A stretch of 64,000 nucleotides of DNA from the sequence record MZ501058. The stretch is one strand, 5' to 3'. The notes under the pieces were generated by a model. The model did no database searches. It was not told the DNA's origin and was given only the letters and a program-made list of their open reading frames with translations. Below are positions 19,923-31,276 of this stretch, piece after piece; position 1 is the first letter of the stretch; each line of letters begins with the position of its first letter. The position numbers and the translations under genes are program-made. Source of the DNA: Escherichia phage DaisyDussoix.

Positions 19923-19994
19923 CGGGGTGTAGTCTAAGGGATAGGCAGGAGTCTTCTAAATTCCTTTATGCAGGTTCGAATCCTGTCACCTCGG
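19923..19994 (+). tRNA. tRNA-Arg (anticodon UCU)
   Basis: Acceptor CGGGGTG/CACCTCG, loop CTTCTAA, T-arm GCAGG-TTCGAAT-CCTGT, encoded CCA. Confidence 0.8.
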
Positions 19995-20023
19995 CCAATT
20001 TTATTAACTGCTAGGAAAATAAA

Positions 20024-20224
20024 GTGAAAACACGATATATAGTAAAAGTAGTAGGTGAACATTCACAAGTAAATACCACCGATGTTACAGCGCTAGCATT
20101 TGAAGTAGTCTCCGGTATAGTCATATTTCATAACGGAGATATCAAAGCTCCTGAATTTGCTGTGGATGCTAGCCTGTTTATTTCTGCAACTAAAGTAACT
20201 GTAGTAGCTAACTCTTCTAAATAA
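20024..20224 (+). CDS. hypothetical small protein
   Basis: 66 aa ORF just after tRNA-Arg. Confidence 0.4.
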   Translation: MKTRYIVKVVGEHSQVNTTDVTALAFEVVSGIVIFHNGDIKAPEFAVDASLFISATKVTVVANSSK

Positions 20225-20235
20225 TAAGGAAATAT

Positions 20236-21180
20236 ATGTTTACTAAAAATATGAAAGAACTGACTTCTGAGCAAAAAGTAATTCGCACTATTAAACGTTG
20301 GGGTATTGGTGCTGTAGTTGGTTTAGCAGGTTTAATCCTAGCTTTTAATTCATATACTATTGTTTCTGATGGTACGGTTAAAACCCAAACATTTCTTGGT
20401 AAAGTAGATCCTAATCCAGTATTACCTGGTTTCCATCTTGTAAACCCATTTGCATCTTTCGATACTTTTAGTACAAAAGATATTGCTGTAAAATTAGATA
20501 AACTTCAGGTTCCTAGCCAGGATAAGTTTAAATCCACTGTTGACCTGACTGTTATGTTGCAGTTTGACGGTTCTAAGGCACCGATCAACCGTATTAATGC
20601 AGGTACTCAGGATCAGGCTCTAGATAAGTACGTAACTGAAAAATTACTGTCTACTATTCGTGAGTTTGGTAAGTCTGTACCTAAAGCACAAGATTTATTT
20701 GATGCTAAAATTCAGGCTCAATTGCAAACTGCAATTCAACAGGAAGTTGAAGAGTATGCACGCCCTTATGGTTACACAGTTAAGCAAGTGTTCCTTCAGG
20801 ATATTACGTTGCCACCGGTAATCATGGAACAGGTACAAAATACCAAAGTTCGTGAAGAACAGGTTAATGCTGCGAAAGCTGAGTTGGCTCGTGTTGAACA
20901 AGAAGCACAGCAGAAGGTTAAACAAGCAGAAGCAGATCGTGAAGCTCGTAACAACCAAGCTATTGCAAACGAACGTGATGCAGATGCTAAACTGTACGCA
21001 GCTAAGAAAGAAGCCGAAGCTAACGCCGCGCTGCAACGTACTATTACTCCTGAGATGATTCGCTGGAAACAACTAGAAGTTGAAATGATTCGTGCTCAGA
21101 AATATCAAGGTGGTGTACCGCAAACAGTGGTTGGCACTGGTTATGATGGCCAGATGATTATGGATATGCGTAACAAGTAA
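20236..21180 (+). CDS. SPFH/band-7 (prohibitin/HflK-like) membrane protein
   Basis: 314 aa; N-terminal TM segment, then SPFH-like core and long Ala/Gln/Glu-rich coiled-coil. Confidence 0.7.
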   Translation: MFTKNMKELTSEQKVIRTIKRWGIGAVVGLAGLILAFNSYTIVSDGTVKTQTFLGKVDPNPVLPGFHLVNPFASFDTFSTKDIAVKLDKLQVPSQDKFKSTVDLTVMLQFDGSKAPINRINAGTQDQALDKYVTEKLLSTIREFGKSVPKAQDLFDAKIQAQLQTAIQQEVEEYARPYGYTVKQVFLQDITLPPVIMEQVQNTKVREEQVNAAKAELARVEQEAQQKVKQAEADREARNNQAIANERDADAKLYAAKKEAEANAALQRTITPEMIRWKQLEVEMIRAQKYQGGVPQTVVGTGYDGQMIMDMRNK

Positions 21181-21204
21181 TATCCGCATGTAATCTCTGA
21201 AGTA

Positions 21205-21240
21205 AACCCTGTGTTCCCTGGAGAGCGCAGGGTTTTTCTG
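21205..21240 (+). terminator. rho-independent terminator after SPFH gene
   Basis: AACCCTG...CAGGGTTTTTCTG. Confidence 0.6.
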
Positions 21241-21275
21241 TATAACGTATTTATAAAATCAACTAGGAGATCAAA

Positions 21276-21795
21276 TATGAGTGTTGATGAGTTGACCCGG
21301 CACCTTCTATCTAGAGGGTTTGATACAGATAAATATCATTGCTGGTTAAGTCCGGAAGGATGGCTAACAGTCCCGTTGTATGATTTCTCTGGGATGTTGA
21401 GGGGCTATCAGACGTATAATCCTTCTGCTCCAAAAGGTCATGGTAAGTGTCCCTTTGAGGCTAAATATTTTACCTACTCTACTACCCAGTGTGTATGGGG
21501 ACTAGAAACTCTCAATGGAGATGAAAAAGTAGTATTGATTGCTGAATCTGTATTTAAGGCAGTTGCATTACATAATGCTGGTTATCCAGCCCTAGCAATG
21601 TTGGGTTCTACCCCAGGAAAAGCGTTATTAAAGCAACTGAAATTACTACCTTTTAAATTGGTAGCTGTCGGGGATAATGATCCTGCGGGTGAAAAATTTG
21701 CTAGAAAATTAAACGGCTTTGTTTCTCCTGTAGATGTGGATGAGATGTCTACCGAAAACTTGAAAAATTTTCTTGCTATGAAGCTAAATTTCTAA
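21276..21795 (+). CDS. Toprim-domain protein
   Basis: Internal ATG (MSVDELTRH) with AGGAGA RBS; VVLIAESVFKAVAL...VGDNDPAGEKFA resembles Toprim DxD region. Confidence 0.5.
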
Positions 21796-21801
21796 TATAA
21801 T
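21773..21801 (+). promoter_or_regulatory. T5-type early promoter driving the tRNA-Ser block
   Basis: TTCTTGCT ... CTAATATAATATATCTTATAAATTCGGAAG. Confidence 0.6.
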
Positions 21802-21816
21802 ATATCTTATAAATTC

Positions 21817-21902
21817 GGAAGAATAGCATAACGGTATTGCAGCAGATTGCTAATCTGTCGGTTTGAAATATAGCCTTGTGGGTTCGATTCCCACTTCTTC
21901 CG
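21817..21902 (+). tRNA. tRNA-Ser (anticodon GCU), type II
   Basis: Acceptor GGAAGAA/TTCTTCC, loop TTGCTAA, long variable arm, T-arm GTGGG-TTCGATT-CCCAC, CCA. Confidence 0.85.
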
Positions 21903-21911
21903 CCAAATTCT

Positions 21912-21986
21912 GGTTCTCAAGCTCATATGGTATGAGCACCCAGCTCATAACTGGAAGGTACGTAGGTTCGAATCCTCGGGGAGCCA
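21912..21986 (+). tRNA. tRNA-Met or Ile2 (anticodon CAU)
   Basis: Acceptor GGTTCTC/GGGAGCC with G-U pairs, D-stem GCTC/GAGC, loop CTCATAA, CCA; T-stem pairs imperfectly. Confidence 0.7.
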
Positions 21987-22009
21987 CCAACTTAATTAGG
22001 GGATTACAA

Positions 22010-22198
22010 GTGGAATTATACATAGTTTATGTTGTGTTTATTCAAGATAGAGAATACCCTGATGAATATAAAAAAGGATATAGGTTAGCCAGAGCTACCT
22101 CTGAAGCCCAAGCTATGGATAAAGTGGCAGATTATATGATTACGGTAGAAAACGTACACTATATCGACTACCTTGAGGCCTCAAAAGTAATTGACTAA
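22010..22198 (+). CDS. hypothetical small protein
   Basis: ORF 21863..22198 trimmed to a GTG start after the CAU tRNA, because its 5' part overlaps two tRNA genes. Confidence 0.3.
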   Translation: MELYIVYVVFIQDREYPDEYKKGYRLARATSEAQAMDKVADYMITVENVHYIDYLEASKVID

Positions 22199-22207
22199 GG
22201 AGACTAT

Positions 22208-22393
22208 ATGTCCAAGTTTCAAGAACTCAAGCAAGAGCTAGAAGAATGTGCCTGCCCTGAGTGTAGGGGAATTGGTGAAAGTTCTGATGCAGAAGCAGGA
22301 GATACTTTTTGCAATATCTGGGTTTGCCCAAATTGCAATGGTACAGGTATTAATCCTAACTGTGGTATTTCTCTAGATATTGAAAGAGGGTAA
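22208..22393 (+). CDS. Cys-rich zinc-ribbon-like small protein
   Basis: 61 aa with CxxC...CxxC pairs. Confidence 0.45.
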   Translation: MSKFQELKQELEECACPECRGIGESSDAEAGDTFCNIWVCPNCNGTGINPNCGISLDIERG

Positions 22394-22493
22394 TATCTGT
22401 GAAACTAAAAGATTATTATATTGGTTGGTTTGTGGGACTAGTAGTAGGATTTTCACTAGGCTATAATATGTATCAACTAATAAACTGATTACA

Positions 22494-22567
22494 CGGGGGT
22501 GTAATCGAATTGGCATAGGTACTGGACTTAAAATTCAGGTTTTGTGGGTTCGAATCCCACCACCCCT
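22494..22567 (+). tRNA. tRNA with anticodon UAA (Leu-like) and short variable arm
   Basis: Acceptor GGGGGTG/CACCCCT, anticodon stem CTGGA/TTCAG, loop CTTAAAA, T-arm GTGGG-TTCGAAT-CCCAC, CCA. Confidence 0.7.
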
Positions 22568-22586
22568 ACCAAATTAAGGAAATAAG

Positions 22587-22754
22587 ATGTATAGACCTCC
22601 ACCTCCGCCAACACGTCGTTCTAGAGAAGTTATCCTCATGGAATTGACTAAAAACTTCAAGGCAACTCTTGAAGATAGAGATTTAGGCACGGATGAAGAC
22701 ATTGATTTTATTTGTAGACTATTAAAGATGAAACTGGAGAAACAACATGGCTAA
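22587..22754 (+). CDS. hypothetical Pro-rich small protein
   Basis: About 55 aa (MYRPPPPPTRRS...) with AAGGAAA RBS right after a tRNA; below ORF-track cutoff. Confidence 0.3.
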   Translation: MYRPPPPPTRRSREVILMELTKNFKATLEDRDLGTDEDIDFICRLLKMKLEKQHG

Positions 22755-22953: not shown

Positions 22954-22983
22954 CTCCTCCAAATAGAATTTTTAAAAATGTAC

Positions 22984-23013: not shown

Positions 23014-23043
23014 AGTTATATAAATTGATGAAGGAGTTAACTA

Positions 23044-23447: not shown

Positions 23448-23524
23448 GTTGGATTAGTATCGTAGAGGTAGCGAAGCAGACTGTAAATCTGCCGACTCGG
23501 GTGGTTCGACTCCATCATCCAACA
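23448..23524 (+). tRNA. tRNA-Tyr (anticodon GUA)
   Basis: Acceptor GTTGGAT/ATCCAAC, stem GCAGA/TCTGC, loop CTGTAAA, T-loop TTCGACT, CCA. Confidence 0.8.
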
Positions 23525-23534
23525 CCAAATTTAA

Positions 23535-23608
23535 GTCCTGTTAGACAAACTGGTAAAGTCACTACCCTTTCAAGGTAGGATTTGCGGGTTCGATCCCCGC
23601 ACAGGACG
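23535..23608 (+). tRNA. tRNA-Glu (anticodon UUC)
   Basis: Acceptor GTCCTGT/ACAGGAC, stem CTACC/GGTAG, loop CTTTCAA, T-arm GCGGG-TTCGATC-CCCGC, CCA. Confidence 0.85.
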
Positions 23609-23620
23609 CCAATTTCTGCA

Positions 23621-23693
23621 TTCCTAGAGTGTTACTGGACAGCATGTCGGTCTCCAAAACCGTACGGTCTAGGTTCGAGTCCTAGTAGGTTTG
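23621..23693 (+). tRNA. tRNA-Trp (anticodon CCA), acceptor stem with 5'-end mismatches
   Basis: D-stem TGTT/AGCA, loop CTCCAAA, T-arm CTAGG-TTCGAGT-CCTAG, CCA; positions 1-2 appear unpaired in my reading. Confidence 0.55.
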
Positions 23694-23702
23694 CCAAAAT
23701 TT

Positions 23703-23774
23703 GCACCTTTAGCTGAGATGGATTAGCGCTTGCCTGAAGAGCTTGAGAGGTTCGTTCGATACGAACAGGGTGCA
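23703..23774 (+). tRNA. tRNA, probably Phe (GAA); anticodon arm ambiguous
   Basis: Acceptor GCACCTT/AGGGTGC, T-arm GTTCG-TTCGATA-CGAAC, CCA; loop CTGAAGA gives GAA with weak stem, alternative register gives CUG. Confidence 0.6.
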
Positions 23775-23779
23775 CCAAA

Positions 23780-24136: not shown

Positions 24137-24209
24137 CGACCGTTGGCTGAATGGCTTAGGCGAAGGATTGCAAATCCTTTTTATGTGAGTTCAAATCTCA
24201 TGCGGTCGT
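24137..24209 (+). tRNA. tRNA-Cys (anticodon GCA)
   Basis: Acceptor CGACCGT/GCGGTCG, stem AAGGA/TCCTT, loop TTGCAAA, T-loop TTCAAAT, CCA. Confidence 0.8.
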
Positions 24210-24233
24210 CCAAATTACTAAAGGAAAGAAGTA

Positions 24234-24752
24234 GTGCATACAAAAGTTTTTGATAGTTTGGTAAAGAAAGGCGTTGTTACTAATGAGCCCTTCTGTATAA
24301 CCGCAGAACTAATCCAAAGATTTATGGAAGAATATATAAATCTTTCAGGAACCAATGGTAACACCAAAAAGAATACAAATACTATGTATTCGAGAAAACT
24401 TGCTGCACTTTCCTTTATAAAGTTTAAGCAGGAAAATAAACTTCCTATTTCTGAAGGTTTTGTATACTGTATTAGTAATCCTGCATGGAAAAATCAGTAT
24501 AAAATAGGTATGAGTCAAAATCCGAAGGAGAGATTAGCTCAATATCAGACTTATTCCCCTTATAGGGATTATAAGTTAGAGCATTGGTCTTTTTGGTTTG
24601 ACAAACGAAAAGGTGAAAAACTAATTCACCAGTATTTCAAAGATTTAAAAGAACATGAGTGGTTTAGTATAAATTCTAGGGATCTTAGTAAATATCTAGG
24701 ACGTATTAACTCTAGTTCTGACTTATATGGTTCCTTAGCTCTAATTGGTTAG
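24234..24752 (+). CDS. T5orf172-domain (GIY-YIG-related) protein, putative homing endonuclease
   Basis: 172 aa; GFVYCISNPAWKNQYKIGMSQNPKERLAQYQTYSP matches the T5orf172/MUG113 core; 3' end overlaps tRNA-Asn. Confidence 0.75.
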   Translation: MHTKVFDSLVKKGVVTNEPFCITAELIQRFMEEYINLSGTNGNTKKNTNTMYSRKLAALSFIKFKQENKLPISEGFVYCISNPAWKNQYKIGMSQNPKERLAQYQTYSPYRDYKLEHWSFWFDKRKGEKLIHQYFKDLKEHEWFSINSRDLSKYLGRINSSSDLYGSLALIG

Positions 24753-24803
24753 AGCGGCATCTTGTTAAGTTGAGGGTTGCTGGTTCGAATCCAGCAGGAA
24801 CCG
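24729..24803 (+). tRNA. tRNA-Asn (anticodon GUU), weak anticodon stem
   Basis: Acceptor GGTTCCT/AGGAACC, D-stem GCTC/GAGC, loop TTGTTAA, T-arm GCTGG-TTCGAAT-CCAGC, CCA; overlaps 3' end of T5orf172 ORF. Confidence 0.7.
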
Positions 24804-24908
24804 CCAAATTCTGTGTAGAGTTAAGTAAACCGGTAGCCAACCAGCTATCATTGCTGACATCGAATTCAGCCACAGATACCATTTTCATTAATAACTGAGG
24901 AAACAAGC

Positions 24909-25103: not shown

Positions 25104-25177
25104 GCGACCGGGGCTGGCTTGGTAATGGTACTCCCCTGTCACGGGAGGGAATGTGGGTTCAAATCCCATCGGTCGCG
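25104..25177 (+). tRNA. tRNA-Asp (anticodon GUC)
   Basis: Acceptor GCGACCG/CGGTCGC, stem CTCCC/GGGAG, loop CTGTCAC, T-loop TTCAAAT, CCA. Confidence 0.85.
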
Positions 25178-25205
25178 CCAAATTAATTTAGTATGAGAAT
25201 ATACT

Positions 25206-25674: not shown

Positions 25675-25788
25675 CATTCTAGCGTGGTTGATGGGGAAAC
25701 CAGCTTGGCTAGGGCAGAAGCTCGTTCGATTCGAGTGAAAGAATGGTTCTCGTAAGTCCGCACAAGTGATAATAGGTTCGAGTCCTGT
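25675..25788 (+). ncRNA. tRNA-like structured RNA candidate (two T-arm-like hairpins, 7-bp closing stem)
   Basis: 5' ATTCTAG pairs with 3' CTAGAAT; internal CTCG-TTCGATT-CGAG and ATAGG-TTCGAGT-CCTGT hairpins; too long for a tRNA. Confidence 0.3.
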
Positions 25789-25805
25789 CTAGAATGACAC
25801 TATAA

Positions 25806-25930
25806 AGTTTACTTATTATGTAGGTTCCGATAGATCGGAGGGTCTATTCTGGCATTTAAGAGAGGTCTCGCAAACGTCTTTGTCAGCCGTGGGGTTGGTA
25901 GCCTCCAGGTGGCCTACACAATAAGTAAAT
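25806..25930 (+). ncRNA. structured RNA candidate closed by about 16-bp terminal stem
   Basis: 5' TTACTTATTATGTAGG pairs with 3' CCTACACAATAAGTAA with one mismatch; no ORF. Confidence 0.3.
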
Positions 25931-26006: not shown

Positions 26007-26582
26007 ATGGAAGGATTTAAGCCAATACCCGAGTATCCAGAATACTTAGTATCTGAGAAGGGAGAAATATACTCTACTATCAGTAATAAATATCTAAAAC
26101 CTACTATAAACGGAAAAGGCTATTACCACTTTGCAGTACGTGAAGATACTAATAAGTATAAATGGCTCCAGCTGCACAGAGTCATATGCAGAGTTTATGG
26201 CAATCTCCCCTCTTTAGATAGTGAAATGGAAGTAGATCATAATGATCGTAATAAGCTTAATATACTCCCTAGTAATTTAGTTGCCAGAGAGAAGAAAGAT
26301 CATTATGATAAAACTACACTGGAGAGAGGAAAAACTATAGGGGGCACTAGATGTATAGTCTGTAATAAGAGGATACACTCTGGTCGAGAATACTGTATAA
26401 ATTGCAGCCCAGTTAAACAGACTAAATCTCCAGAGATTACCGCAGAACAGATAGAATATTGGGTATCAAAGTATTCCTGGACTAGAGCTGCAAAAGAGTT
26501 AAATTTATCTGATAATGGTCTACGAAAACGGTATACTAAATTAACAGGTAAATCCCCAAAAGAAATTAAAAAATCAGGGTAA
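26007..26582 (+). CDS. HNH homing endonuclease, family B
   Basis: 191 aa; N-terminal PEYPEYLVSEKGEIYS module, EVDHNDRNKLN HNH motif, CxxC...CxxC Zn site; paralogs at 27903 and 29338. Confidence 0.85.
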   Translation: MEGFKPIPEYPEYLVSEKGEIYSTISNKYLKPTINGKGYYHFAVREDTNKYKWLQLHRVICRVYGNLPSLDSEMEVDHNDRNKLNILPSNLVAREKKDHYDKTTLERGKTIGGTRCIVCNKRIHSGREYCINCSPVKQTKSPEITAEQIEYWVSKYSWTRAAKELNLSDNGLRKRYTKLTGKSPKEIKKSG

Positions 26583-26658: not shown

Positions 26659-26733
26659 TGCGGGTTAGATCTCTGGTAGAGATCGCTAGTCTCATAAGCT
26701 AGAAAGAGGTAGGTTCGATTCCTGCACCCGCTT
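26659..26733 (+). tRNA. tRNA-Met (anticodon CAU) with 1-72 mismatch
   Basis: Acceptor TGCGGGT/ACCCGCT, D-stem GATC/GATC, stem CTAGT/GCTAG, loop CTCATAA, T-arm GTAGG-TTCGATT-CCTGC, CCA. Confidence 0.7.
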
Positions 26734-26756
26734 CCACTTTAATAGAGGATTTCGAA

Positions 26757-26925: not shown

Positions 26926-27001
26926 AGATCGCTAGCTCAATAGGTTTAGTAGCATCCGACTTTTAATCGGAAGGTTCTGGGTTCGAGTCCCAGGCGATCT
27001 A
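26926..27001 (+). tRNA. tRNA-Lys (anticodon UUU)
   Basis: Acceptor AGATCGC/GCGATCT, stem TCCGA/TCGGA, loop CTTTTAA, T-arm CTGGG-TTCGAGT-CCCAG, CCA. Confidence 0.85.
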
Positions 27002-27008
27002 CCAAATT

Positions 27009-27079
27009 GCTCGGTTAGTTTAATGGGAGAACCCCGTCTTTACACGGCGGTTGAGATAGTTCAATTCTATCACCGAGTA
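27009..27079 (+). tRNA. tRNA-Val (anticodon UAC)
   Basis: Acceptor GCTCGGT/ACCGAGT, stem CCGTC/GGCGG, loop TTTACAC, T-arm GATAG-TTCAATT-CTATC, CCA. Confidence 0.8.
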
Positions 27080-27101
27080 CCAATTAACTCAAAATAAGGA
27101 A

Positions 27102-27529: not shown

Positions 27530-27702
27530 TATTAGCTCGACCTAGGACTGGCTGCCAAAAAGCACGATCCCTACAATTCGGGAGAAGTTCTAGATTAGTC
27601 CACTAGATTCAGCGGCAACTGAATAGTGTATCGGGTTTGCGAGATGACGCAGTTCCTTCCGCTCGAAGCGAAGGTGCTGTAGTTACGCCGAGCTAATAGC
27701 CT
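27530..27702 (+). ncRNA. structured RNA candidate closed by 9-bp stem
   Basis: 5' ATTAGCTCG pairs with 3' CGAGCTAAT; sits between a T5-type promoter and tRNA-Ala; no ORF, no T-loop. Confidence 0.3.
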
Positions 27703-27720: not shown

Positions 27721-27792
27721 GGGCGAATAGTGTCAGCGGGAGCACACCAGACTTGCAATCTGGTAGGGAGGGTTCGAGTCCCTCTTTGTCCA
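27721..27792 (+). tRNA. tRNA-Ala (anticodon UGC)
   Basis: Acceptor GGGCGAA/TTTGTCC with G3-U70, stem CCAGA/TCTGG, loop CTTGCAA, T-arm GAGGG-TTCGAGT-CCCTC, CCA. Confidence 0.8.
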
Positions 27793-27800
27793 CCAAATTC

Positions 27801-27882
27801 GGGGCTATGCTGGAACTGGTAGACAATACGGCCTTAGATTCCGTAGCTTAAATGCGTGGGAGTTCGAGTCTCCCTAGCCCCA
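27801..27882 (+). tRNA. tRNA-Leu (anticodon UAG), type II
   Basis: Acceptor GGGGCTA/TAGCCCC, stem TACGG/CCGTA, loop containing TAG, long variable arm, T-arm GGGAG-TTCGAGT-CTCCC, CCA. Confidence 0.75.
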
Positions 27883-27902
27883 CCAACTCATAGGATTTAT
27901 GT

Positions 27903-28487
27903 ATGCAGTTTGTACCAATAAAAGATGCACCAGGGTATTTAGTAAATGAGGCGGGGGATGTGTTCTCTACATTTACTAATAAAGTTTTATCAAGATATAT
28001 AGTTGATGGATACCCTGCTGTAAAATTACAGATAAATGGTAAACAAACCTCTGTACTTATACACCGAATTATTTCTCATGTATTTGGGGACTTATATAAT
28101 CTATTTGACCCTGAACTAGAGGTAGATCATAAGGATAGAGATAGACTGAATCTATCTAAAGATAATCTTCAAGTCCTATCAAAAATAGAACATCAGAGGA
28201 AAACTAATAAAGATAATGGGTGGTCTGACAGTAGAGTACCTTGCCCCCTATGTGGGAGTCTAATGCTTCAGAGATCTGTAACATGTACAAATTGTAAGCC
28301 AAAACCTACAGGAAGGTTGATAAAACCAGAATTGTCTTTAGACGACATAACTGAAAAGGTTTTATTAATGGGGTGGGTTAAGGCAGCTAAAGAGTTAGAA
28401 GTATCAGAGTCCACTTTGCGCAGGAGGTATACTAAACTAACTGGATTAAGCCCAAAAGTATTAACAGAACAATGGAAAAGCAAGTAG
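27903..28487 (+). CDS. HNH homing endonuclease, family B
   Basis: 194 aa; EVDHKDRDRLN HNH motif, same architecture as 26007 and 29338. Confidence 0.85.
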   Translation: MQFVPIKDAPGYLVNEAGDVFSTFTNKVLSRYIVDGYPAVKLQINGKQTSVLIHRIISHVFGDLYNLFDPELEVDHKDRDRLNLSKDNLQVLSKIEHQRKTNKDNGWSDSRVPCPLCGSLMLQRSVTCTNCKPKPTGRLIKPELSLDDITEKVLLMGWVKAAKELEVSESTLRRRYTKLTGLSPKVLTEQWKSK

Positions 28488-28562
28488 ACTGGCGACTAAA
28501 CCCGATTGGAAAGTGGCTGACTTGTGAAAGCAGGCTTGAGAGTTCGAATCTCTCTTCTTCCG
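28474..28562 (+). tRNA. tRNA-like gene, long type; 3' half canonical, 5' half not confidently folded
   Basis: T-arm GAGAG-TTCGAAT-CTCTC, acceptor 3' strand TTCTTCC-G-CCA identical to tRNA-Ser(GCU) end; 5' strand GGAAAAG has one mismatch; overlaps HNH ORF stop. Confidence 0.4.
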
Positions 28563-28572
28563 CCAAACAATA

Positions 28573-28660
28573 GAAGATAGGACGTAGTGGTACGTAACCG
28601 GTCTTGAAAACCGGCCCGCTGTAGTGATACGGTGTAAGGGTTCGATCCCCTTACCTACCT
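28573..28660 (+). tRNA. tRNA-Ser (anticodon UGA)-like, type II; acceptor pairing not found
   Basis: D-arm ACGT-AGTGGT-ACGT, stem CCGGT/ACCGG, loop CTTGAAA, long variable arm, T-arm AAGGG-TTCGATC-CCCTT, CCA; 5' acceptor strand does not pair in my reading. Confidence 0.4.
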
Positions 28661-29029
28661 CCAAATCTTGAAGTATGCCGAAATCGGTAGACGGGGCTGC
28701 CTAAAAGGTTTATAGGGAACATCCACTCCCTACAACATACCTCATAAAGCGGCTGAGATAAATGGTCTATCTCGTGAAGGTTCAAGTCCTTCTGCTTCTT
28801 GATACATCTATGGCTCAAAGTGTAACGGTGCTATTTGATGCTCTTGGTAAGACTTCCCCGACATGCGTTCGGGAGTAAGCTGCTAAGACTAGAGTAGAAG
28901 AGTTTCTGAGAGCCGCCACAATTGAAAATTCGTACTCGTCTTGAGCTGCGCGCAATAGGAGATAACTTGATTAGTATTCTAGAACATGCTAATTGAGGAA
29001 GGTTTCGCTAACCCTGCGAGTTTTCAATT

Positions 29030-29103
29030 GTGGCTATATCATAATTGGTTAATGATCCTGATTGTGAATCAGGCCTATGTGGATTCGAATTCCACTAGCC
29101 ACC
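29030..29103 (+). tRNA. tRNA-His (anticodon GUG)
   Basis: Acceptor GTGGCTA/TAGCCAC, stem CCTGA/TCAGG, loop TTGTGAA, T-arm GTGGA-TTCGAAT-TCCAC, CCA. Confidence 0.85.
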
Positions 29104-29136
29104 CCAAATTAACTTAACTTAAATAGGAAATAAAAT

Positions 29137-29331
29137 ATGGCTGATTTCTGCAAACAATGCTCCATTGATATGTGGGGCAGAGATACTGGTGATCTTTCTG
29201 GTTTGATTACAGAAGCTGAGGTCAAAGAAGGTTATGGTGCAGTTGTGATTTGCGAAGGATGCGGAGTTATTCGAGTAGATCATGAAGGCAAACGTTTAGA
29301 AGAATCTGAGCCAACAACAATTTTTCCGTAG
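29137..29331 (+). CDS. Cys-rich small protein
   Basis: 64 aa with CKQC...CEGC pairs. Confidence 0.4.
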   Translation: MADFCKQCSIDMWGRDTGDLSGLITEAEVKEGYGAVVICEGCGVIRVDHEGKRLEESEPTTIFP

Positions 29332-29337
29332 AATAAG

Positions 29338-29919
29338 ATGAAATTAGAGAATTTCAAAGTAATTCCTGAGTATCCAGAATACTTAATCTCTCCATACGGA
29401 GAGGTTTACTCTACCAAGAGTAATAAATTACTTACACATCATTTAGGCAGTGCGGGATACCTGTTTGTAACGTTCTATGAACAGGGTAAAAATGTTTCTG
29501 TTGTACTGCATAGATTATTGGCTAGAGTATTTAAAGATTTACCTTCGCTAGAATCTGAACTAGAGGTGGATCACAAAGATAGGAATAAATTGAACTTTGC
29601 CCTGGATAATCTAGTTGTCATGACCAAGGAAGATCACAGAGTAAAAACTACACTTGAAAGAGGACATATAATAGGTGGTAACAAGTGCCCTTATTGTAGT
29701 AAACAAATAAATTCTTCAGCTAAAACTTGTTTTGATTGTAAACCTAAGAGTAACCCTGCTATTACAGCAGAGCAAATAGAATATTGGGTAATAAATTATT
29801 CGTGGGTTAAAGCATCAAAAGAGCTGGGACTATCTGATAATGGTCTACGTAAACGTTATAAATCCTTAACAGGTAAAGATCCAAAAAGTATTAAGAAGAA
29901 GGTTAGCCAAGTCGGTTAA
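29338..29919 (+). CDS. HNH homing endonuclease, family B
   Basis: 193 aa; EVDHKDRNKLN HNH motif; 3' end overlaps the following tRNA. Confidence 0.85.
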   Translation: MKLENFKVIPEYPEYLISPYGEVYSTKSNKLLTHHLGSAGYLFVTFYEQGKNVSVVLHRLLARVFKDLPSLESELEVDHKDRNKLNFALDNLVVMTKEDHRVKTTLERGHIIGGNKCPYCSKQINSSAKTCFDCKPKSNPAITAEQIEYWVINYSWVKASKELGLSDNGLRKRYKSLTGKDPKSIKKKVSQVG

Positions 29920-29968
29920 GGCTGGGGTCTCTGAAATCCTGATCAGTGGTTCAAATCCACTACTTTCT
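29897..29968 (+). tRNA. tRNA-Gln (anticodon CUG)
   Basis: Acceptor AGAAGGT/ACTTTCT, loop CTCTGAA, T-arm AGTGG-TTCAAAT-CCACT, CCA; overlaps last 22 nt of HNH ORF. Confidence 0.65.
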
Positions 29969-29978
29969 GCCAAACAAT

Positions 29979-30053
29979 TGGGGATTAGCTTAGCTTGGCC
30001 TAAAGCTTCGGCCTTTGAAGTCGAGATCATTGGTTCAAATCCAATATCCCCTG
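29979..30053 (+). tRNA. tRNA-Gln (anticodon UUG)
   Basis: Acceptor (T)GGGGAT/ATCCCCT, stem TCGGC/GTCGA, loop CTTTGAA, T-arm ATTGG-TTCAAAT-CCAAT, CCA. Confidence 0.65.
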
Positions 30054-30067
30054 CCAGCCAAATTAAT

Positions 30068-30139
30068 GCGTGATTAGTTCAGTGGCTAGAATAACTGGCT
30101 TCCAACCAGTAGACACGAGTTCGACTCTCGTATCCCGCA
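30068..30139 (+). tRNA. tRNA-Gly (anticodon UCC)
   Basis: Acceptor GCGTGAT/ATCCCGC (one mismatch), stem ACTGG/CCAGT, loop CTTCCAA, T-arm ACGAG-TTCGACT-CTCGT, CCA. Confidence 0.75.
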
Positions 30140-30156
30140 CCAAATAAGGAAACACT

Positions 30157-30408
30157 ATGCACGTTTTTGAGTTTCGTAATAAAAGTACCGATAAGCGAGT
30201 TATCATTATTGGAGAAACATATCGAGCATATGAACAAACTGACGGCTCTGTTATCTTGAATGATGAGAAAGGAGGTTTTAGCTTTTATCCAGAAGAACCT
30301 TATGAAGAGTTTCGAAAACAATTTAACCTAGACTGGAGAAAGCATTTAAACACTGTTGCTTCATCTGTAATATTGCCAACTACCAGTACTGTACTCTCTA
30401 ATGGCTGA
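30157..30408 (+). CDS. hypothetical protein
   Basis: 83 aa ORF with AAGGAAA RBS. Confidence 0.45.
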   Translation: MHVFEFRNKSTDKRVIIIGETYRAYEQTDGSVILNDEKGGFSFYPEEPYEEFRKQFNLDWRKHLNTVASSVILPTTSTVLSNG

Positions 30409-30575
30409 CAACCTAAAAGTAAAGATTGATAAACAAAAGAAACGTGTAGAAGTAGAGATTGGTGAAGAACGTGTTGCCTTTACTTTTGAATTTCTACAGC
30501 AAATGGCAATGACAGTTATGACTGATAAGTCCCCTGTTATTGAAAAAGAAATCCCGTTGAAATAACGGGATCATA

Positions 30576-30647
30576 GCTCCTAAAGCATTGCTGGCGATGC
30601 AGTTGCCTTGTAAGCATCTGAACCGGGTTCGATTCCTGGTGGGAGCA
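30576..30647 (+). tRNA. tRNA-Thr (anticodon UGU)
   Basis: Acceptor GCTCCTA/TGGGAGC, D-stem GCAT/ATGC, loop CTTGTAA, T-arm CCGGG-TTCGATT-CCTGG, CCA. Confidence 0.8.
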
Positions 30648-30665
30648 CCAAATTTAAAAATTCAT

Positions 30666-30694
30666 TTGCTTTCTCTCTTATTTATTGTTATAAT
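30666..30694 (+). promoter_or_regulatory. T5-type early promoter
   Basis: AAAATTCATTTGCT ... ATTGTTATAATAATTATATAAATTAATGAGAGGG. Confidence 0.7.
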
Positions 30695-30724
30695 AATTAT
30701 ATAAATTAATGAGAGGGAAACCAA

Positions 30725-31015
30725 ATGAAACGTTATCTTTCTGTAGTATTCCAAACTGGCGGCCAAAGATACACCTATGAATTTCCACCCTCTTGGAAAA
30801 TCAAAGAGGGTGATCAAGTAGTAGTGTTAACACCGCGTGAAGGATATAAAGTAGTAACGGTTAAACAAGTATTTCTAAAAGATCATGAACCAGCTAAAGG
30901 CATCTGCTATAAGATGATTCATGGTGTGGTTCGTCAAGTACCACGAACTGAGGTAGAAGTAGATAAGACTGGAGAAACTAAATTCCATTATACTTCTTAC
31001 TTAGACAGTGTGTGA
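30725..31015 (+). CDS. hypothetical protein
   Basis: 96 aa ORF with GAGAGGG RBS downstream of a T5-type promoter. Confidence 0.5.
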   Translation: MKRYLSVVFQTGGQRYTYEFPPSWKIKEGDQVVVLTPREGYKVVTVKQVFLKDHEPAKGICYKMIHGVVRQVPRTEVEVDKTGETKFHYTSYLDSV

Positions 31016-31030
31016 TGTAAATATTTTAAT

Positions 31031-31104
31031 GCTTCGGTAGCTTAGCGATCTAAAGCACTCGGCTGATAACCGAGAGATCGGGGGTTTAAATCCCTCCCGG
31101 AGTA
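31031..31104 (+). tRNA. tRNA-Ile (anticodon GAU)
   Basis: Acceptor GCTTCGG/CCGGAGT, stem CTCGG/CCGAG, loop CTGATAA, unusual T-loop TTTAAAT, CCA. Confidence 0.75.
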
Positions 31105-31203
31105 CCAAATTTAGGAATTAAGACTATGCGTCCAGGAAAGTTTAAAAAAGCTAATTGGACTAAAGAGTATAAAGAATACTTACTTAGTCTAGTAAAACAT
31201 AAT

Positions 31204-31276
31204 AGTTAGTTGGCAGAGTGGTTATGCACCTCCTTCATACGGAGTGACTACAGTGGTTCAAATCCACTACTAACTA
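31204..31276 (+). tRNA. tRNA-Met or Ile2 (anticodon CAU), third CAU tRNA
   Basis: Acceptor AGTTAGT/ACTAACT, loop TTCATAC, T-arm AGTGG-TTCAAAT-CCACT, CCA. Confidence 0.7.

What the first reader, a model, noticed from the sequence alone, without database searches (positions are those of the whole stretch)
19923..31276. Dense tRNA cluster with unusual members: three CAU tRNAs, a UAA tRNA with a short variable arm, and several tRNAs with imperfect acceptor stems
About 26 tRNA or tRNA-like genes are packed into 11 kb, almost all with encoded CCA. Three carry anticodon CAU. One has anticodon UAA in a class-I fold, unlike bacterial tRNA-Leu. The Trp, Pro, Ser(UGA)-like and one further Ser-like gene have acceptor or T-stem mismatches in my reading. 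Some may be pseudogenes or noncanonical tRNAs. The set may serve to reprogram translation or to resist host anticodon nucleases.
Basis: partly seen in the sequence, partly recalled or inferred. Interest (0 to 1): 0.55.

Follow-up and report, generated by a model that had tools for sequence, protein, structure and literature searches.

The report
T5-type phage tRNA gene cluster
This is the long-known tRNA gene cluster of a T5-like phage. Most of its oddities are conserved working features, including a leucine tRNA without the usual long arm, but three genes are broken hybrids made by recombination beside homing-endonuclease genes.

Summary
Window 19923-31279 holds 26 plus-strand tRNA genes, all with encoded CCA and covering all 20 amino acids. 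The region is about 93% identical to the phage T5 tRNA region.

- **Three CAU tRNAs:** these are the T5 trio of Ile2, an initiator-like tRNA and elongator Met.
- **UAA tRNA:** it is a real class-I (short-arm) tRNA-Leu, 100% identical to 'tRNAL2' of Salmonella phage 5, whose record says its CUA derivative is an effective amber suppressor. It keeps every E. coli LeuRS identity element. It belongs to a large, strongly covarying, virus-associated family of short-arm tRNA-Leu.
- **Trp:** the two U.U acceptor mismatches are conserved, and this allele is annotated as suppressor-competent.
- **Pro, Ser(GGA), Ser(UGA):** each is a hybrid of two divergent alleles, with the crossover in a conserved loop or arm, leaving mismatched stems. 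Pro and Ser(GGA) each directly abut an HNH homing-endonuclease gene; Ser(UGA) lies 6 nt beyond Ser(GGA). They are probably pseudogenes and are private to this genome.
- **Tyr:** it carries a private 11-nt deletion that removes its variable arm.

Codon supply and resistance to host tRNA nucleases are both already published roles for T5 tRNAs. The cluster itself is ordinary. The wide spread of short-arm tRNA-Leu in phages is the one under-described point.

The parts
19923..19997 (+). tRNA-Arg(UCU)
   Evidence: ARAGORN. Rfam 49.3 bits. 98.7% identical to the T5 gene.
21817..21905 (+). tRNA-Ser(GCU), class II
   Evidence: 60.5 bits. 100% identical to T5.
21912..21989 (+). tRNA-Ile2(CAU), with two T-stem mismatches
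   Evidence: Rfam 38.2 bits and relaxed ARAGORN. 100% identical to T5 tRNAI2(CAU), whose note says it is suppressor-competent. It has U12-A23, C29-G41, A37, A38 and A73, like the phage Ile1 (read from the sequence).
22495..22571 (+). Class-I (short variable arm) tRNA-Leu(UAA), equal to 'tRNAL2'
   Evidence: 100% identical to Salmonella phage 5 tRNAL2, annotated as an 'effective amber suppressor'. At least 99% identical in 290 phage records. Family covariation is shown.
23448..23527 (+). tRNA-Tyr(GUA) with a private 11-nt deletion of the variable arm
   Evidence: No record among 50,697 carries the deletion. Rfam 34.5 bits.
23535..23611 (+). tRNA-Glu(UUC)
   Evidence: 61.1 bits.
23620..23696 (+). 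tRNA-Trp(CCA) with U2.U71 and U3.U70
   Evidence: Rfam 36.3 bits. 100% identical to phage 5 tRNAW, which is annotated as suppressor-competent. 100% identical in 14 of the fetched loci.
23703..23777 (+). tRNA-Phe(GAA)
   Evidence: 42.4 bits.
24137..24212 (+). tRNA-Cys(GCA)
   Evidence: 48.5 bits.
24234..24752 (+). T5orf172/MUG113-domain ORF whose 3' end overlaps tRNA-Asn by 24 nt
   Evidence: Pfam PF10544 and PF13455. ORF list.
24729..24806 (+). tRNA-Asn(GUU)
   Evidence: 55.4 bits.
24809..24881 (+). Homologue of T5 'RNA3' (tRNA-like stable RNA)
   Evidence: 100% identical to the T5 feature.
25104..25180 (+). tRNA-Asp(GUC)
   Evidence: 46.7 bits.
25675..25920 (+). Homologues of T5 stable RNAs 'RNA2' (tRNA-like, 25675-25799) and 'RNAIV' (25818-25920)
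   Evidence: BLAST to the T5 features. Relaxed ARAGORN hit at 25677-25744.
26007..26582 (+). HNH homing endonuclease (hegB / F-TflIII type), overlapping the 5' end of tRNA-Pro by 8 nt
   Evidence: Pfam HNH_3 plus NUMOD4. Homologous to hegB of phage 5.
26575..26652 (+). Hybrid tRNA-Pro(UGG), probably a pseudogene
   Evidence: Nt 1-60 match the hegB-linked phage 5 allele (1 mismatch) and nt 55-78 match the chee24/BF23 allele. No Rfam hit at E<=1. It does not fold as a cloverleaf (z -0.3), whereas its intact parent does (z -3.0).
26659..26736 (+). Initiator-like tRNA-fMet(CAU)
   Evidence: 43.6 bits. 100% identical to T5 tRNAfM. Has a U1.U72 mismatch and A11:U24, but lacks the three G:C pairs in the anticodon stem (read from the sequence).
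26926..27004 (+). tRNA-Lys(UUU), BF23/chee24-type allele and not the T5 allele
   Evidence: (60.9 bits).
27009..27082 (+). tRNA-Val(UAC)
   Evidence: 55.3 bits.
27530..27701 (+). Homologue of T5 stable RNA 'RNA2H'
   Evidence: 97.1% identical.
27721..27795 (+). tRNA-Ala(UGC)
   Evidence: 54.9 bits.
27801..27885 (+). tRNA-Leu(UAG), class II, T5-type allele
   Evidence: 39.7 bits. This allele is in 52 records, against 164 for the class-I allele at the same locus.
27903..28487 (+). HNH homing endonuclease (hegC / F-TflI type), overlapping tRNA-Ser(GGA) by 14 nt
   Evidence: Pfam HNH_3. 99.5% identical to T5 hegC, against about 92-94% for the region as a whole.
28474..28565 (+). Hybrid tRNA-Ser(GGA), probably a pseudogene
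   Evidence: Nt 1-39 match the T5 (hegC-linked) allele and nt 33-88 match the L006 allele at 100%. The crossover lies in the anticodon loop. No Rfam hit. Fold z-score +1.0.
28572..28663 (+). Hybrid tRNA-Ser(UGA), probably a pseudogene
   Evidence: Nt 1-63 match the chee24 allele and nt 50-92 match the L006/L003/L010 allele at 100%. Three of seven acceptor pairs are broken.
28667..29028 (+). Homologues of T5 stable RNAs 'RNA1', 'RNAI' and 'RNAIII'
   Evidence: 83-98% identical.
29030..29106 (+). tRNA-His(GUG); the gene has T, not G, at position -1
   Evidence: 59.9 bits. Sequence read.
29338..29919 (+). HNH homing endonuclease (hegD / F-TflII type), overlapping tRNA-Gln(CUG) by 23 nt
   Evidence: Pfam HNH_3 plus NUMOD4. 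91.8% identical to T5 hegD.
29897..29972 (+). tRNA-Gln(CUG); well formed here, although the T5 copy is flagged as a pseudogene
   Evidence: (54.9 bits).
29979..30056 (+). tRNA-Gln(UUG), with U1.U72
   Evidence: (54.5 bits).
30068..30142 (+). tRNA-Gly(UCC), chee24-type allele
   Evidence: (65.5 bits).
30576..30650 (+). tRNA-Thr(UGU)
   Evidence: 47.4 bits.
31031..31107 (+). tRNA-Ile(GAU)
   Evidence: 64.7 bits.
31204..31279 (+). Elongator tRNA-Met(CAU)
   Evidence: 52.5 bits. Equals T5 tRNAM.
19264..19815 (+). Homologue of T5 stable 'RNAX', containing a tRNA-like element at 19318-19391
   Evidence: BLAST. Rfam 29.3 bits. Relaxed ARAGORN.

Best explanation
The region is the tRNA gene cluster of a T5-like phage (Tequintavirus). 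It holds 26 tRNA genes for all 20 amino acids, interspersed with small ORFs, stable RNAs and three HNH homing-endonuclease genes.

**What it does (inferred from T5 work).** The genes are transcribed during infection and supply the infected cell with phage tRNAs. These tRNAs (i) read codons that the AT-rich phage uses far more than its host does, such as UUA, CUA, AGA, AUA and GGA. They also (ii) replace host tRNAs that defence nucleases destroy. Both roles are published for T5.

**The 'unusual members' fall into two classes.**

- **Class 1: conserved, working noncanonical tRNAs.**
  - The UAA tRNA is a leucine tRNA that has lost the long variable arm. It keeps everything E. coli LeuRS is known to need: A73, the A15:U48 Levitt pair, G18G19 and A20a. 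The arm is dispensable for that enzyme.
  - The same short-arm design is the majority form of tRNA-Leu in T5-like phages and recurs in many unrelated phage tRNA arrays.
  - Trp (two U.U pairs), Ile2(CAU) and the initiator-like CAU tRNA are likewise fixed features of the T5 group.
- **Class 2: recombination casualties.**
  - Pro, Ser(GGA) and Ser(UGA) are each a 5' part of one allele joined to a 3' part of a divergent allele. The joins fall in a shared conserved segment: the T loop, the anticodon loop and the variable arm respectively. The two strands of the acceptor, T or anticodon stem therefore no longer match.
  - Pro and Ser(GGA) start inside the 3' ends of the hegB-type and hegC-type endonuclease genes, and their 5' parts carry the endonuclease-linked allele. 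This is what a homing event leaves behind when its co-conversion tract ends inside the tRNA gene (inferred mechanism).
  - These three genes are most likely dead.
  - Tyr separately lost its variable arm through an 11-nt deletion between CTCGG repeats.
For: **Identity of the cluster.**
- The region is 93.6% identical to T5 over 77% of 12.5 kb, and 587 related records exist.
- Gene order matches the annotated T5, chee24 and phage 5 regions.

**tRNA-Leu(UAA).**
- It is 100% identical to phage 5 tRNAL2. That record notes: 'replacement of the anticodon with CUA converts this tRNA into effective amber suppressor'.
- It is at least 99% identical in 290 phage records.
- Its D arm, G13 A14 A15 U16 U17 G18 G19 N A20a N A22, together with U48 and A73, can be read directly from the sequence. 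LeuRS requirements are taken from PMC9976931.
- A pattern scan fixed the Leu-type D loop and class-I spacing but left the anticodon, position 48 and position 73 free. In viral contigs it returned 103 matches, 92% with Leu anticodons.
- All 67 unique Leu-anticodon sequences have A73 and U48. The 9 non-Leu matches carry G73 (Gln and one His-type AUG anticodon), U73 (Cys) or A73 (UAU).
- On 34 of these sequences, 98.5% of pair cells are paired, against 60% after shuffling and 33-47% after sliding. 18 of 20 pairs covary.
- The same pattern gives only 22 hits in 596 Gbp of cellular genomes. All are MAG contigs, and several sit inside dense tRNA arrays.
- In the same loci Ser keeps its long arm in 66 of 71 unique genes. 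That fits SerRS needing the arm while LeuRS does not.

**Hybrid genes.**
- Breakpoints and parent alleles are shown.
- The covariance model fails on them, while the parent Pro alleles of chee24 and T5 score 62.7 and 55.4 bits.
- The window Pro does not fold as a cloverleaf, while its phage 5 parent does.
- HNH domains are confirmed.
- hegC is 99.5% identical to T5 hegC, against about 92-94% for the region.
- Precedent: T4 SegB cuts the TpsiC motif of tRNA genes and co-converts flanking markers (PMC2330249).

**Function.**
- Codon fractions, phage versus E. coli sample: TTA 0.28 vs 0.10, CTA 0.21 vs 0.04, AGA 0.19 vs 0.02, ATA 0.20 vs 0.04, GGA 0.23 vs 0.08.
- T5 tRNA-Lys counters PARIS, and T5-like tRNA-Tyr counters retron Eco7.
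Against: - There are no expression, processing or aminoacylation data for this genome.
- The suppressor statements are GenBank feature notes, not papers I could read. They do not say which amino acid is inserted.
- The family scan fixed the D loop, part of the anticodon loop and the T loop, so it samples only one sequence flavour of short-arm tRNA-Leu. Loci were chosen for containing one, so the 107:39 short-to-long ratio for Leu is biased.
- The codon-usage contrast is not significant when all cognate codons are pooled (Mann-Whitney p = 0.47). It holds only for A-ending codons of four- and six-codon families plus AUA.
- All three hybrid genes and the Tyr deletion are absent from every other record searched. 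That is also what an assembly artefact from a mixed population of T5-like phages would look like.
- The cleavage sites of the three endonucleases were not mapped here.
- The hegB-linked Pro allele is itself atypical. It has A8 and a 7-nt variable loop, gets no Rfam hit at E<=0.01, and is annotated as not suppressor-competent.
Confidence: 0.8

Rival explanations
1. The hybrid Pro, Ser(GGA) and Ser(UGA) genes and the shortened Tyr are not biological. They would be assembly or consensus artefacts from a sample holding several T5-like phages, with the assembler switching template inside conserved tRNA segments.
For: - None of the four variants occurs in any of 50,697 phage records or in the fetched viral loci.
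- Every junction lies in a stretch shared by both parent alleles. That is where assemblers also switch template.
- The combination of hegB, hegC and hegD is found in no single record.
Against: - Natural recombination uses the same shared stretches.
- Another hybrid tRNA gene, a Leu(UAA)/Leu(UAG) mosaic, exists in an independent viral contig (L076).
- Mosaic exchange of tRNA alleles is the norm across T5-like genomes.
- The 5' parts of the Pro and Ser(GGA) hybrids are contiguous with the endonuclease genes they are normally linked to. Homing predicts this; random template switching does not.
- The Tyr deletion lies between 5-nt direct repeats, which is typical of replication slippage.
Confidence: 0.15
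2. The mismatched Pro and Ser genes are not dead. They would be functional noncanonical RNAs, for example decoys that soak up host tRNA nucleases, or tRNAs rescued by modification or by tolerant host enzymes.
For: - They keep intact D arms, anticodon loops, T loops or variable arms, and an encoded CCA.
- The cluster also encodes several conserved tRNA-like 'stable RNAs' of unknown function.
- Trp shows that two acceptor mismatches can be tolerated.
Against: - Unlike Trp, these variants are not conserved in any other genome.
- Their defects are exactly those expected from joining two alleles, with no compensating changes.
- Covariance scores fall below those of the parents, or vanish altogether.
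- The Pro T stem keeps only 2 of 5 pairs, so the T arm that processing enzymes bind is lost.
Confidence: 0.07
3. The class-I UAA tRNA is not a leucine tRNA. It would be charged with another amino acid and would recode UUA/UUG in phage genes.
For: - It lacks the hallmark long arm of bacterial tRNA-Leu.
- One GenBank record labels it 'tRNA-Xle'.
- No direct aminoacylation data are available.
Against: - A73, A14, A15:U48, G18G19 and A20a are all present.
- E. coli LeuRS ignores both the anticodon and the arm.
- Across 67 family members the anticodon is always a Leu anticodon and position 73 is always A. The rare look-alikes with Gln or Cys anticodons carry G73 or U73.
- UUA is the commonest Leu codon in the phage's ORFs, so recoding it would alter most proteins.
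Confidence: 0.04

Closest known systems
Phage T5 tRNA gene region (NC_005859 / AY543070), and the BF23 and Salmonella phage 5 tRNA regions (AJ604530, AJ604531)
   Same: The gene order is the same, and the DNA is about 93% identical. Many tRNAs are identical. The stable RNAs (RNAX, RNA1-3, RNAI, III, IV, 2H) and the HNH endonucleases hegC and hegD (T5) and hegB (phage 5) are shared. tRNAL2 (UAA, 77 nt) and tRNAW are identical to phage 5.
   Different: - This genome combines hegB, hegC and hegD, and lacks hegA and the T5.077-079 module.
- It carries tRNA-Leu(UAA) where T5 itself has hegA.
- It has hybrid Pro, Ser(GGA) and Ser(UGA) genes and a shortened Tyr, none of which is seen in any other record.
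Phage T4 tRNA cluster with the SegB homing endonuclease (PMC2330249)
   Same: A free-standing homing endonuclease gene sits inside a phage tRNA cluster. It cleaves within tRNA genes of related phages and is inherited together with flanking tRNA markers.
   Different: SegB is a GIY-YIG enzyme, whereas these are HNH/NUMOD4 enzymes. Cleavage sites were not mapped here. Hybrid, broken tRNA genes as a by-product were not described in the passages of that paper I read.
Animal mitochondrial tRNA-Leu, and engineered E. coli tRNA-Leu variants without the variable arm
   Same: These are leucine tRNAs with a short variable loop that LeuRS still charges through A73 and the D/T-loop tertiary core (PMC9976931).
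   Different: The ones here are natural, phage-encoded and used in a bacterial cytoplasm. They have a fully canonical D loop and T loop. A 2023 review states that tRNA-Leu has a long arm everywhere except animal mitochondria, so this phage family is not part of the textbook picture.
Phage tRNAs as counter-defence (T5 tRNA-Lys vs PARIS; T5/SP15 tRNA-Tyr vs retron Eco7; anticodon-loop evasion, PMC10264068)
   Same: It is the same gene cluster in the same phage group.
   Different: The window's Lys allele is the BF23/chee24 type, not the T5 allele that was tested. Its Tyr gene carries a private deletion. Whether either still protects the phage is unknown.

Membership tests
T5-type (Tequintavirus) tRNA gene region | DNA homology and shared gene order with the T5, BF23 and phage 5 tRNA regions | tested here: met
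   93.6% identity over 77% of 12.5 kb to T5. The order of tRNAs, ORFs and stable RNAs matches.
T5-type (Tequintavirus) tRNA gene region | About 24-26 co-oriented tRNA genes covering nearly all amino acids, with encoded CCA | tested here: met
   26 genes on the + strand, 20 amino acids, CCA in all 26.
T5-type (Tequintavirus) tRNA gene region | Free-standing HNH homing-endonuclease genes abutting tRNA genes | tested here: met
   Three HNH_3/NUMOD4 ORFs overlap the 5' ends of Pro, Ser(GGA) and Gln(CUG).
tRNA-Leu (substrate of bacterial LeuRS), for the UAA tRNA | Discriminator A73 | tested here: met
   A73 in the window gene and in 67 of 67 family members.
tRNA-Leu (substrate of bacterial LeuRS), for the UAA tRNA | Tertiary core: A14, the A15:U48 Levitt pair, G18G19 and A20a | tested here: met
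   The D loop is GAAUUGGCAUA and the variable loop is GUUUU, ending in U48. U48 is present in 67 of 67 members although the search pattern did not require it. The requirement comes from PMC9976931.
tRNA-Leu (substrate of bacterial LeuRS), for the UAA tRNA | Long variable arm (class II architecture) | tested here: not met
   The variable loop is 5 nt. The arm is a hallmark of cellular tRNA-Leu but is not an identity element for E. coli LeuRS. This weakens 'typical bacterial tRNA-Leu', not 'charged with Leu'.
tRNA-Leu (substrate of bacterial LeuRS), for the UAA tRNA | Actual leucylation and use in translation | not testable with these tools
   The only indirect evidence is the GenBank note that the CUA derivative is an effective amber suppressor.
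tRNA-Ile2 (lysidine, reads AUA), for 21912-21989 | CAU anticodon together with IleRS-type elements (A37, A38, U12-A23, C29-G41, A73) | tested here: met
   All are present and shared with the phage Ile(GAU). Met(31204) has A12-U23, U29-A41 and C38 instead (read sequences). The element list is recalled from Nureki et al. 1994 and was not checked here.
tRNA-Ile2 (lysidine, reads AUA), for 21912-21989 | TilS determinants C4-G69 and C5-G68 (E. coli), and lysidine at position 34 | tested here: inconclusive
   U4-A69 and C5-G68, so one of the two is present. The determinants are recalled from memory. The modification cannot be tested here. ATA makes up 20% of Ile codons in the phage, so an AUA reader is needed.
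Bacterial initiator tRNA-fMet, for 26659-26736 | Mismatch at 1:72 and A11:U24 (formylation determinants) | tested here: met
   U1.U72, G2-C71, C3-G70 and A11:U24 (sequence). T5 annotates the identical gene as the initiator.
Bacterial initiator tRNA-fMet, for 26659-26736 | Three consecutive G:C pairs at the base of the anticodon stem | tested here: not met
   The anticodon stem is CUAGU/GCUAG, with A29-U41, G30-C40 and U31.G39. It is initiator-like in the acceptor and D arms only.
Functional tRNA (Rfam RF00005 / cloverleaf), for Pro, Ser(GGA) and Ser(UGA) | Covariance score at or above gathering (29 bits) and paired acceptor and T stems | tested here: not met
   No tRNA hit at E<=1 for Pro or Ser(GGA). 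Ser(UGA) gets only 34.9 bits against tRNA-Sec, whose gathering score is 47. Broken stems are shown. Intact Ser alleles of T5 and chee24 also fall below gathering on this model (39-43 bits), so for the Ser genes the stems are the stronger evidence.
Homing-endonuclease co-conversion product, for Pro and Ser(GGA) | The endonuclease gene is adjacent. The near part of the tRNA carries the endonuclease-linked allele, and the far part carries an allele from endonuclease-free genomes. | tested here: met
   Pro nt 1-60 match the hegB-linked allele and nt 55-78 the BF23/chee24 allele. Ser(GGA) nt 1-39 match the hegC-linked T5 allele and nt 33-88 the L006 allele.
Homing-endonuclease co-conversion product, for Pro and Ser(GGA) | The endonuclease gene is more similar to the donor lineage than the surrounding DNA is | tested here: met
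   hegC is 99.5% identical to T5, against 92-94% for the region. This does not hold for hegB (about 92%).
Homing-endonuclease co-conversion product, for Pro and Ser(GGA) | The endonuclease cleaves the endonuclease-free allele in or near the tRNA gene | not testable with these tools
   Reported for F-TflI, II and IV by Akulenko et al. 2004. That paper is cited in PMC2330249, but I could not read it.

The most novel reading that the evidence does not exclude
Short-arm (class-I) tRNA-Leu may be a widespread, essentially virus-specific tRNA design that is selected for, not merely tolerated. Losing the long variable arm would let phage tRNA-Leu escape host factors that recognise class-II tRNAs by that arm, such as defence nucleases or toxins, in the way human SLFN11 targets type-II tRNAs and especially tRNA-Leu(UAA). 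The tRNA would remain a full LeuRS substrate. On this reading, the class-I and class-II alleles that segregate at the Leu(UAG) locus of T5-like phages (164 versus 52 records) would be an ongoing arms-race polymorphism.
Probability: 0.12. Interest if true: 0.7.

Novelty: new member of a known kind. Interest (0 to 1): 0.3.

Why it matters
**The cluster itself.** It matters little, because it is a further mosaic member of the best-studied phage tRNA cluster.

**Two by-products are worth keeping.**

1. **Short-arm tRNA-Leu in phages.**
   - A 2023 review states that tRNA-Leu has a long variable arm everywhere except animal mitochondria.
   - The data here show a large, covarying, virus-associated family of short-arm tRNA-Leu that keeps the LeuRS identity set. 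It is the majority form in T5-like phages.
   - In the same tRNA arrays Ser keeps its arm.
   - This is a natural confirmation of the in vitro rule that bacterial LeuRS ignores the arm. It also bears on tRNA annotation and on the design of orthogonal or suppressor tRNAs.
2. **Hybrid tRNA genes.** The hybrid Pro and Ser genes show a concrete cost of homing-endonuclease traffic inside tRNA clusters. Conversion tracts that end inside a tRNA gene produce dead hybrids. This helps explain why tRNA content varies among otherwise near-identical T5-like phages.

Tried and rejected
- **Protein-based locus search.** Searching viral contigs with the T5orf172-domain protein gave only 8 loci, too few for allele statistics. 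I replaced it with DNA pattern scans and BLAST against the phage collection.
- **Promoter and terminator scan.** It found 36 promoter-like sites against 36.8 expected from shuffles, so it is uninformative. It is not used beyond noting that the T5 records annotate promoters here.
- **Single-sequence folding.** It does not recover the cloverleaf even for the well-supported Leu(UAA) and Trp genes. I used it only to contrast the hybrid Pro with its intact parent.
- **Pooled codon-usage test.** Comparing all cognate with all non-cognate codons was not significant (p = 0.47). Only the A-ending codons of multi-codon families and AUA show the excess.
- **Literature searches.** Searches for any description of short-arm tRNA-Leu in phages found nothing relevant. 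This shows absence from the searchable library, not that nothing has been published.
- **Considered and rejected:**
  - That the UAA tRNA is a misfolded class-II Leu or has an 8-nt anticodon loop. The cloverleaf is regular and covaries.
  - That the three CAU tRNAs are redundant Met genes. Their D-stem, anticodon-stem and 1:72 features differ in the expected ways.
  - That the short Tyr gene belongs to the same kind of family as short-arm Leu. It is a private 11-nt deletion of a 91-nt allele.

Full report
**1. What is there**

ARAGORN at default settings finds 23 tRNA genes between 19923 and 31279, all on the + strand. Rfam's tRNA model at gathering score finds 24 in the window, 23 of them in this range. 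The two sets differ by Ile2(CAU) at 21912, found only by Rfam, and Ser(UGA) at 28572, found only by ARAGORN. With a relaxed ARAGORN threshold, Pro(UGG) at 26575-26652 and Ser(GGA) at 28474-28565 also appear.

All 26 genes are followed by a discriminator base and CCA, and together they cover all 20 amino acids. The relaxed run also picks up two tRNA-like elements, at 19318-19391 and 25677-25744.

**2. What it is**

The region is 93.6% identical to phage T5 over 77% of its length. 587 phage records, almost all of them T5-like phages of Salmonella, Escherichia or Klebsiella, share parts of it.

The annotated T5, chee24 and Salmonella phage 5 regions show the same order of tRNA genes, small ORFs, 'stable RNAs' and HNH endonuclease genes. 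This is therefore the classical T5-type tRNA gene region. The two tRNA-like elements correspond to parts of T5's 'RNAX' and 'RNA2'.

Relative to T5, the window differs in four ways:
- It lacks hegA and the three minus-strand genes T5.077-079.
- It carries tRNA-Leu(UAA) plus two small ORFs where T5 has hegA.
- It carries a hegB-type endonuclease that T5 lacks.
- No single record contains its combination of hegB, hegC and hegD.

**3. The three CAU tRNAs**

They are identical or nearly identical to the T5 genes annotated as tRNA-Ile2(CAU), initiator tRNA-fMet and elongator tRNA-Met. The sequences fit these labels:
- The 21912 gene shares U12-A23, C29-G41, A37, A38 and A73 with the phage's own Ile(GAU).
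- The 26659 gene has a U1.U72 mismatch, G2-C71, C3-G70 and A11:U24, which are formylation-type features. It lacks the three G:C pairs in the anticodon stem that canonical initiators have.
- The 31204 gene has none of these features.

ATA makes up 20% of Ile codons in the phage's ORFs, against 4% in an E. coli sample, so an AUA reader is useful. Three CAU genes is the normal T5 complement, not an anomaly.

**4. The UAA tRNA**

It is 77 nt long, with a regular cloverleaf and a 5-nt variable loop. It scores 57.4 bits against RF00005.

*Identity and function*
- It is absent from T5 proper but 100% identical to 'tRNAL2' of Salmonella phage 5. That GenBank record states that replacing the anticodon with CUA gives an effective amber suppressor.
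- It is at least 99% identical in 290 phage records and is usually annotated tRNA-Leu.
- Its D arm is that of E. coli tRNA-Leu: a 3-bp stem and the loop G13 A14 A15 U16 U17 G18 G19 C A20a U A22. It has U48 and A73.
- According to the identity review PMC9976931, E. coli LeuRS needs A73, the A15:U48 pair, G18G19 and A20a. It needs neither the anticodon nor the long arm, and arm-less variants remain active. Leucine identity is therefore the best-supported reading, though it is inferred.

*The wider family*
- chee24, BF23 and phage 5 carry a second short-arm Leu, with anticodon UAG, at the locus where T5 and this window have a class-II 85-nt gene. Among phage records the short-arm UAG allele is in 164 and the long-arm allele in 52.
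- I scanned viral contigs for the Leu-type D loop at class-I spacing from the T loop, leaving the anticodon and positions 48 and 73 unspecified. This gave 103 matches and 57 unique sequences, 92% of them with Leu anticodons.
- Pooling these with the cellular-genome scan gives 67 unique sequences with Leu anticodons, and all 67 have A73 and U48. The nine with other anticodons carry G73 (Gln and one His-type AUG anticodon), U73 (Cys) or A73 (UAU).
- On 34 gap-free members the cloverleaf is paired in 98.5% of cells. The figure is 60% after shuffling and 33-47% after sliding the partners. There are 266 double-sided changes, and 18 of 20 pairs covary.
- The same pattern gave only 22 hits in 596 Gbp of bacterial and archaeal genomes. 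All are in MAG contigs, and several sit inside dense arrays of 9-27 tRNA genes, which look like phage DNA.
- In the flanks of all these loci, 33 further short-arm Leu genes do not match the pattern. Ser keeps its long arm in 66 of 71 unique genes, and Tyr in 29 of 34.

Short-arm tRNA-Leu is thus a common, selected and essentially virus-associated design, and it occurs where synthetase rules permit it. I found no paper that says so. The review cited above states that tRNA-Leu has a long arm everywhere except animal mitochondria.

**5. The imperfect tRNAs**

*Trp.* It has U2.U71 and U3.U70. It is 100% identical to phage 5 tRNAW, annotated as convertible to an amber suppressor, and it is unchanged in 14 of the fetched loci. 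It is odd but conserved.

*The three hybrids.* Pro, Ser(GGA) and Ser(UGA) are a different matter. Each is a hybrid of two alleles that occur intact in other phages.

| Gene | 5' part | 3' part | Crossover | Resulting defects |
|---|---|---|---|---|
| Pro | nt 1-60, hegB-linked allele of phage 5 (one mismatch) | nt 55-78, BF23/chee24 allele | T loop | T stem keeps 2 of 5 pairs; acceptor stem keeps 5 of 7 |
| Ser(GGA) | nt 1-39, T5 allele | nt 33-88, allele of Salmonella phage LVR16A (L006) | anticodon loop | pair 31:39 and pair 5:68 are lost |
| Ser(UGA) | nt 1-63, chee24 allele | nt 50-92, L006 allele | variable arm | three of seven acceptor pairs are lost |

- Rfam gives no tRNA hit for the hybrid Pro or Ser(GGA) even at E<=1. 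The Pro alleles of chee24 and T5 score 62.7 and 55.4 bits.
- The phage 5 Pro parent folds as a cloverleaf (z -3.0). The hybrid does not (z -0.3).
- None of the hybrids occurs in any other record.

*Link to the endonucleases*
- The ORFs at 26007-26582, 27903-28487 and 29338-29919 carry HNH_3 (plus or minus NUMOD4) domains.
- They overlap the 5' ends of Pro, Ser(GGA) and Gln(CUG) by 8, 14 and 23 nt respectively.
- The 5' parts of the hybrid Pro and Ser(GGA) are exactly the alleles normally linked to hegB and hegC.
- hegC is 99.5% identical to T5's copy, in a region that is otherwise about 92-94% identical.

This is the footprint expected when an endonuclease gene homes into a related genome and the co-conversion tract ends inside the neighbouring tRNA gene. 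The closest documented precedent is T4 SegB. It recognises the TpsiC motif of tRNA genes and drives co-inheritance of the T4 tRNA region (PMC2330249). The T5 enzymes F-TflI, II and IV are cited there. The homing step is inferred; the hybrid structure is shown.

**6. Tyr**

It is 80 nt long, whereas the otherwise identical allele in phage 5, LVR16A and others is 91 nt. Eleven nucleotides (GAAGGGTCTCG), lying between CTCGG repeats, are missing, which removes the variable-arm hairpin. No record among 50,697 has this deletion.

This matters because tRNA-Tyr of T5-like phages is what defeats retron Eco7 (PMC11555353). Whether the shortened tRNA is still charged by TyrRS is unknown.

**7. Function**

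- *Codon supply.* For the A-ending codons read by the U34 tRNAs and for AUA, the phage's synonymous fractions exceed those of an E. coli K-12 sample by 1.2 to 8.3 times in the four- and six-codon families (GAA and AAA, in two-codon families, show no excess). Examples are TTA 0.28 vs 0.10, CTA 0.21 vs 0.04, AGA 0.19 vs 0.02 and GGA 0.23 vs 0.08. The pooled test over all cognate codons is not significant (p = 0.47).
- *Counter-defence.* This is published for T5. tRNA-Lys resists the PARIS nuclease AriB (PMC11464382), and tRNA-Tyr rescues phage from retron Eco7. Anticodon-loop evasion has been proposed in general (PMC10264068), and a bacterial Schlafen cleaves both host and T5 tRNAs (PMC13056530).
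- *This genome.* The window's Lys allele is the BF23/chee24 type, not the T5 allele that was tested. Nothing here tests either role for this genome.

**8. Verdict**

The cluster is a new mosaic member of a well-known kind. Its 'unusual' tRNAs are of two sorts:
- conserved T5-group features: short-arm Leu, Trp, Ile2 and the initiator-like tRNA;
- private damage: three recombinant hybrids and one deletion.

The main caveat is that the private variants could be assembly artefacts, which only the reads or resequencing can settle. The one point of wider interest is how general short-arm tRNA-Leu is in phages.

Noticed in passing
window 23448-23527: tRNA-Tyr(GUA) is 80 nt instead of 91 nt. An 11-nt deletion (GAAGGGTCTCG, between CTCGG direct repeats) removes the variable-arm hairpin of an otherwise identical allele. 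The deletion is not present in any of 50,697 phage records.
   Followed up: yes
window 29029-29106: The tRNA-His gene has the E. coli-like acceptor stem GUGGCUA/UAGCCAC and C73, but it encodes T rather than G at position -1. Bacterial tRNA-His normally carries an encoded G-1 that HisRS requires. The sequence is 100% identical in T5 and phage 5, where the CUA derivative is annotated as an effective suppressor.
   Followed up: partly
window 26659-26736: The 'initiator' CAU tRNA has the 1:72 mismatch and A11:U24. It lacks the three G:C pairs in the anticodon stem that define bacterial initiators, and it has U73 instead of A73. It is identical in T5.
   Followed up: partly
window 19264-19815 (tRNA-like element at 19318-19391): The homologue of T5 'RNAX' contains a tRNA-like cloverleaf without CCA. 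It scores 29.3 bits against Rfam tRNA here and 38.3 bits in T5. It is about 92% conserved among T5, chee24 and phage 5, and its function is unknown.
   Followed up: partly
window 24234-24752: An ORF with T5orf172/MUG113 domains overlaps the 5' end of tRNA-Asn by 24 nt. This is the same arrangement as the three HNH genes show with their downstream tRNAs. By my recollection, not checked here, these domains are related to GIY-YIG nucleases.
   Followed up: partly
L076 (IMGVR_UViG_2974642025_000001), match at 1305-1355: Another T5-like contig carries a hybrid short-arm Leu gene. Its acceptor 5' strand and D arm come from Leu(UAA). The 5' strand of its anticodon stem, its T arm and its acceptor 3' strand come from the class-I Leu(UAG) gene. 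This shows that hybrid tRNA genes arise elsewhere in this phage group.
   Followed up: partly
L002 (phage chee24) 6696-6789: The chee24 tRNA-Glu gene is 94 nt because of a tandem duplication of about 17 nt (GAGAATCGGAGTTCAAT) spanning the variable region and T arm. It is another damaged tRNA allele in a relative.
   Followed up: no
window 21181-21235 and 21990-22494: Compared with T5, the window lacks the minus-strand module T5.077-079 between the Band-7 gene and the Toprim gene. It also lacks hegA; two small ORFs plus tRNA-Leu(UAA) occupy that position. No phage record has this window's combination of hegB, hegC and hegD.
   Followed up: partly
window 18584-19033 and 31554-31922: Two ORFs flank the cluster. 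One is YqeY-like and is annotated 'tRNA amidotransferase' in T5; it scores 25.4 bits against Pfam, just below the 27-bit cut-off. The other has a glycyl-radical domain and is GrcA/pyruvate formate-lyase-like.
   Followed up: no
window about 6000 and about 50000: GC skew changes sign near 6 kb (negative to positive) and near 50 kb (positive to negative). This is consistent with blocks of oppositely transcribed genes.
   Followed up: no
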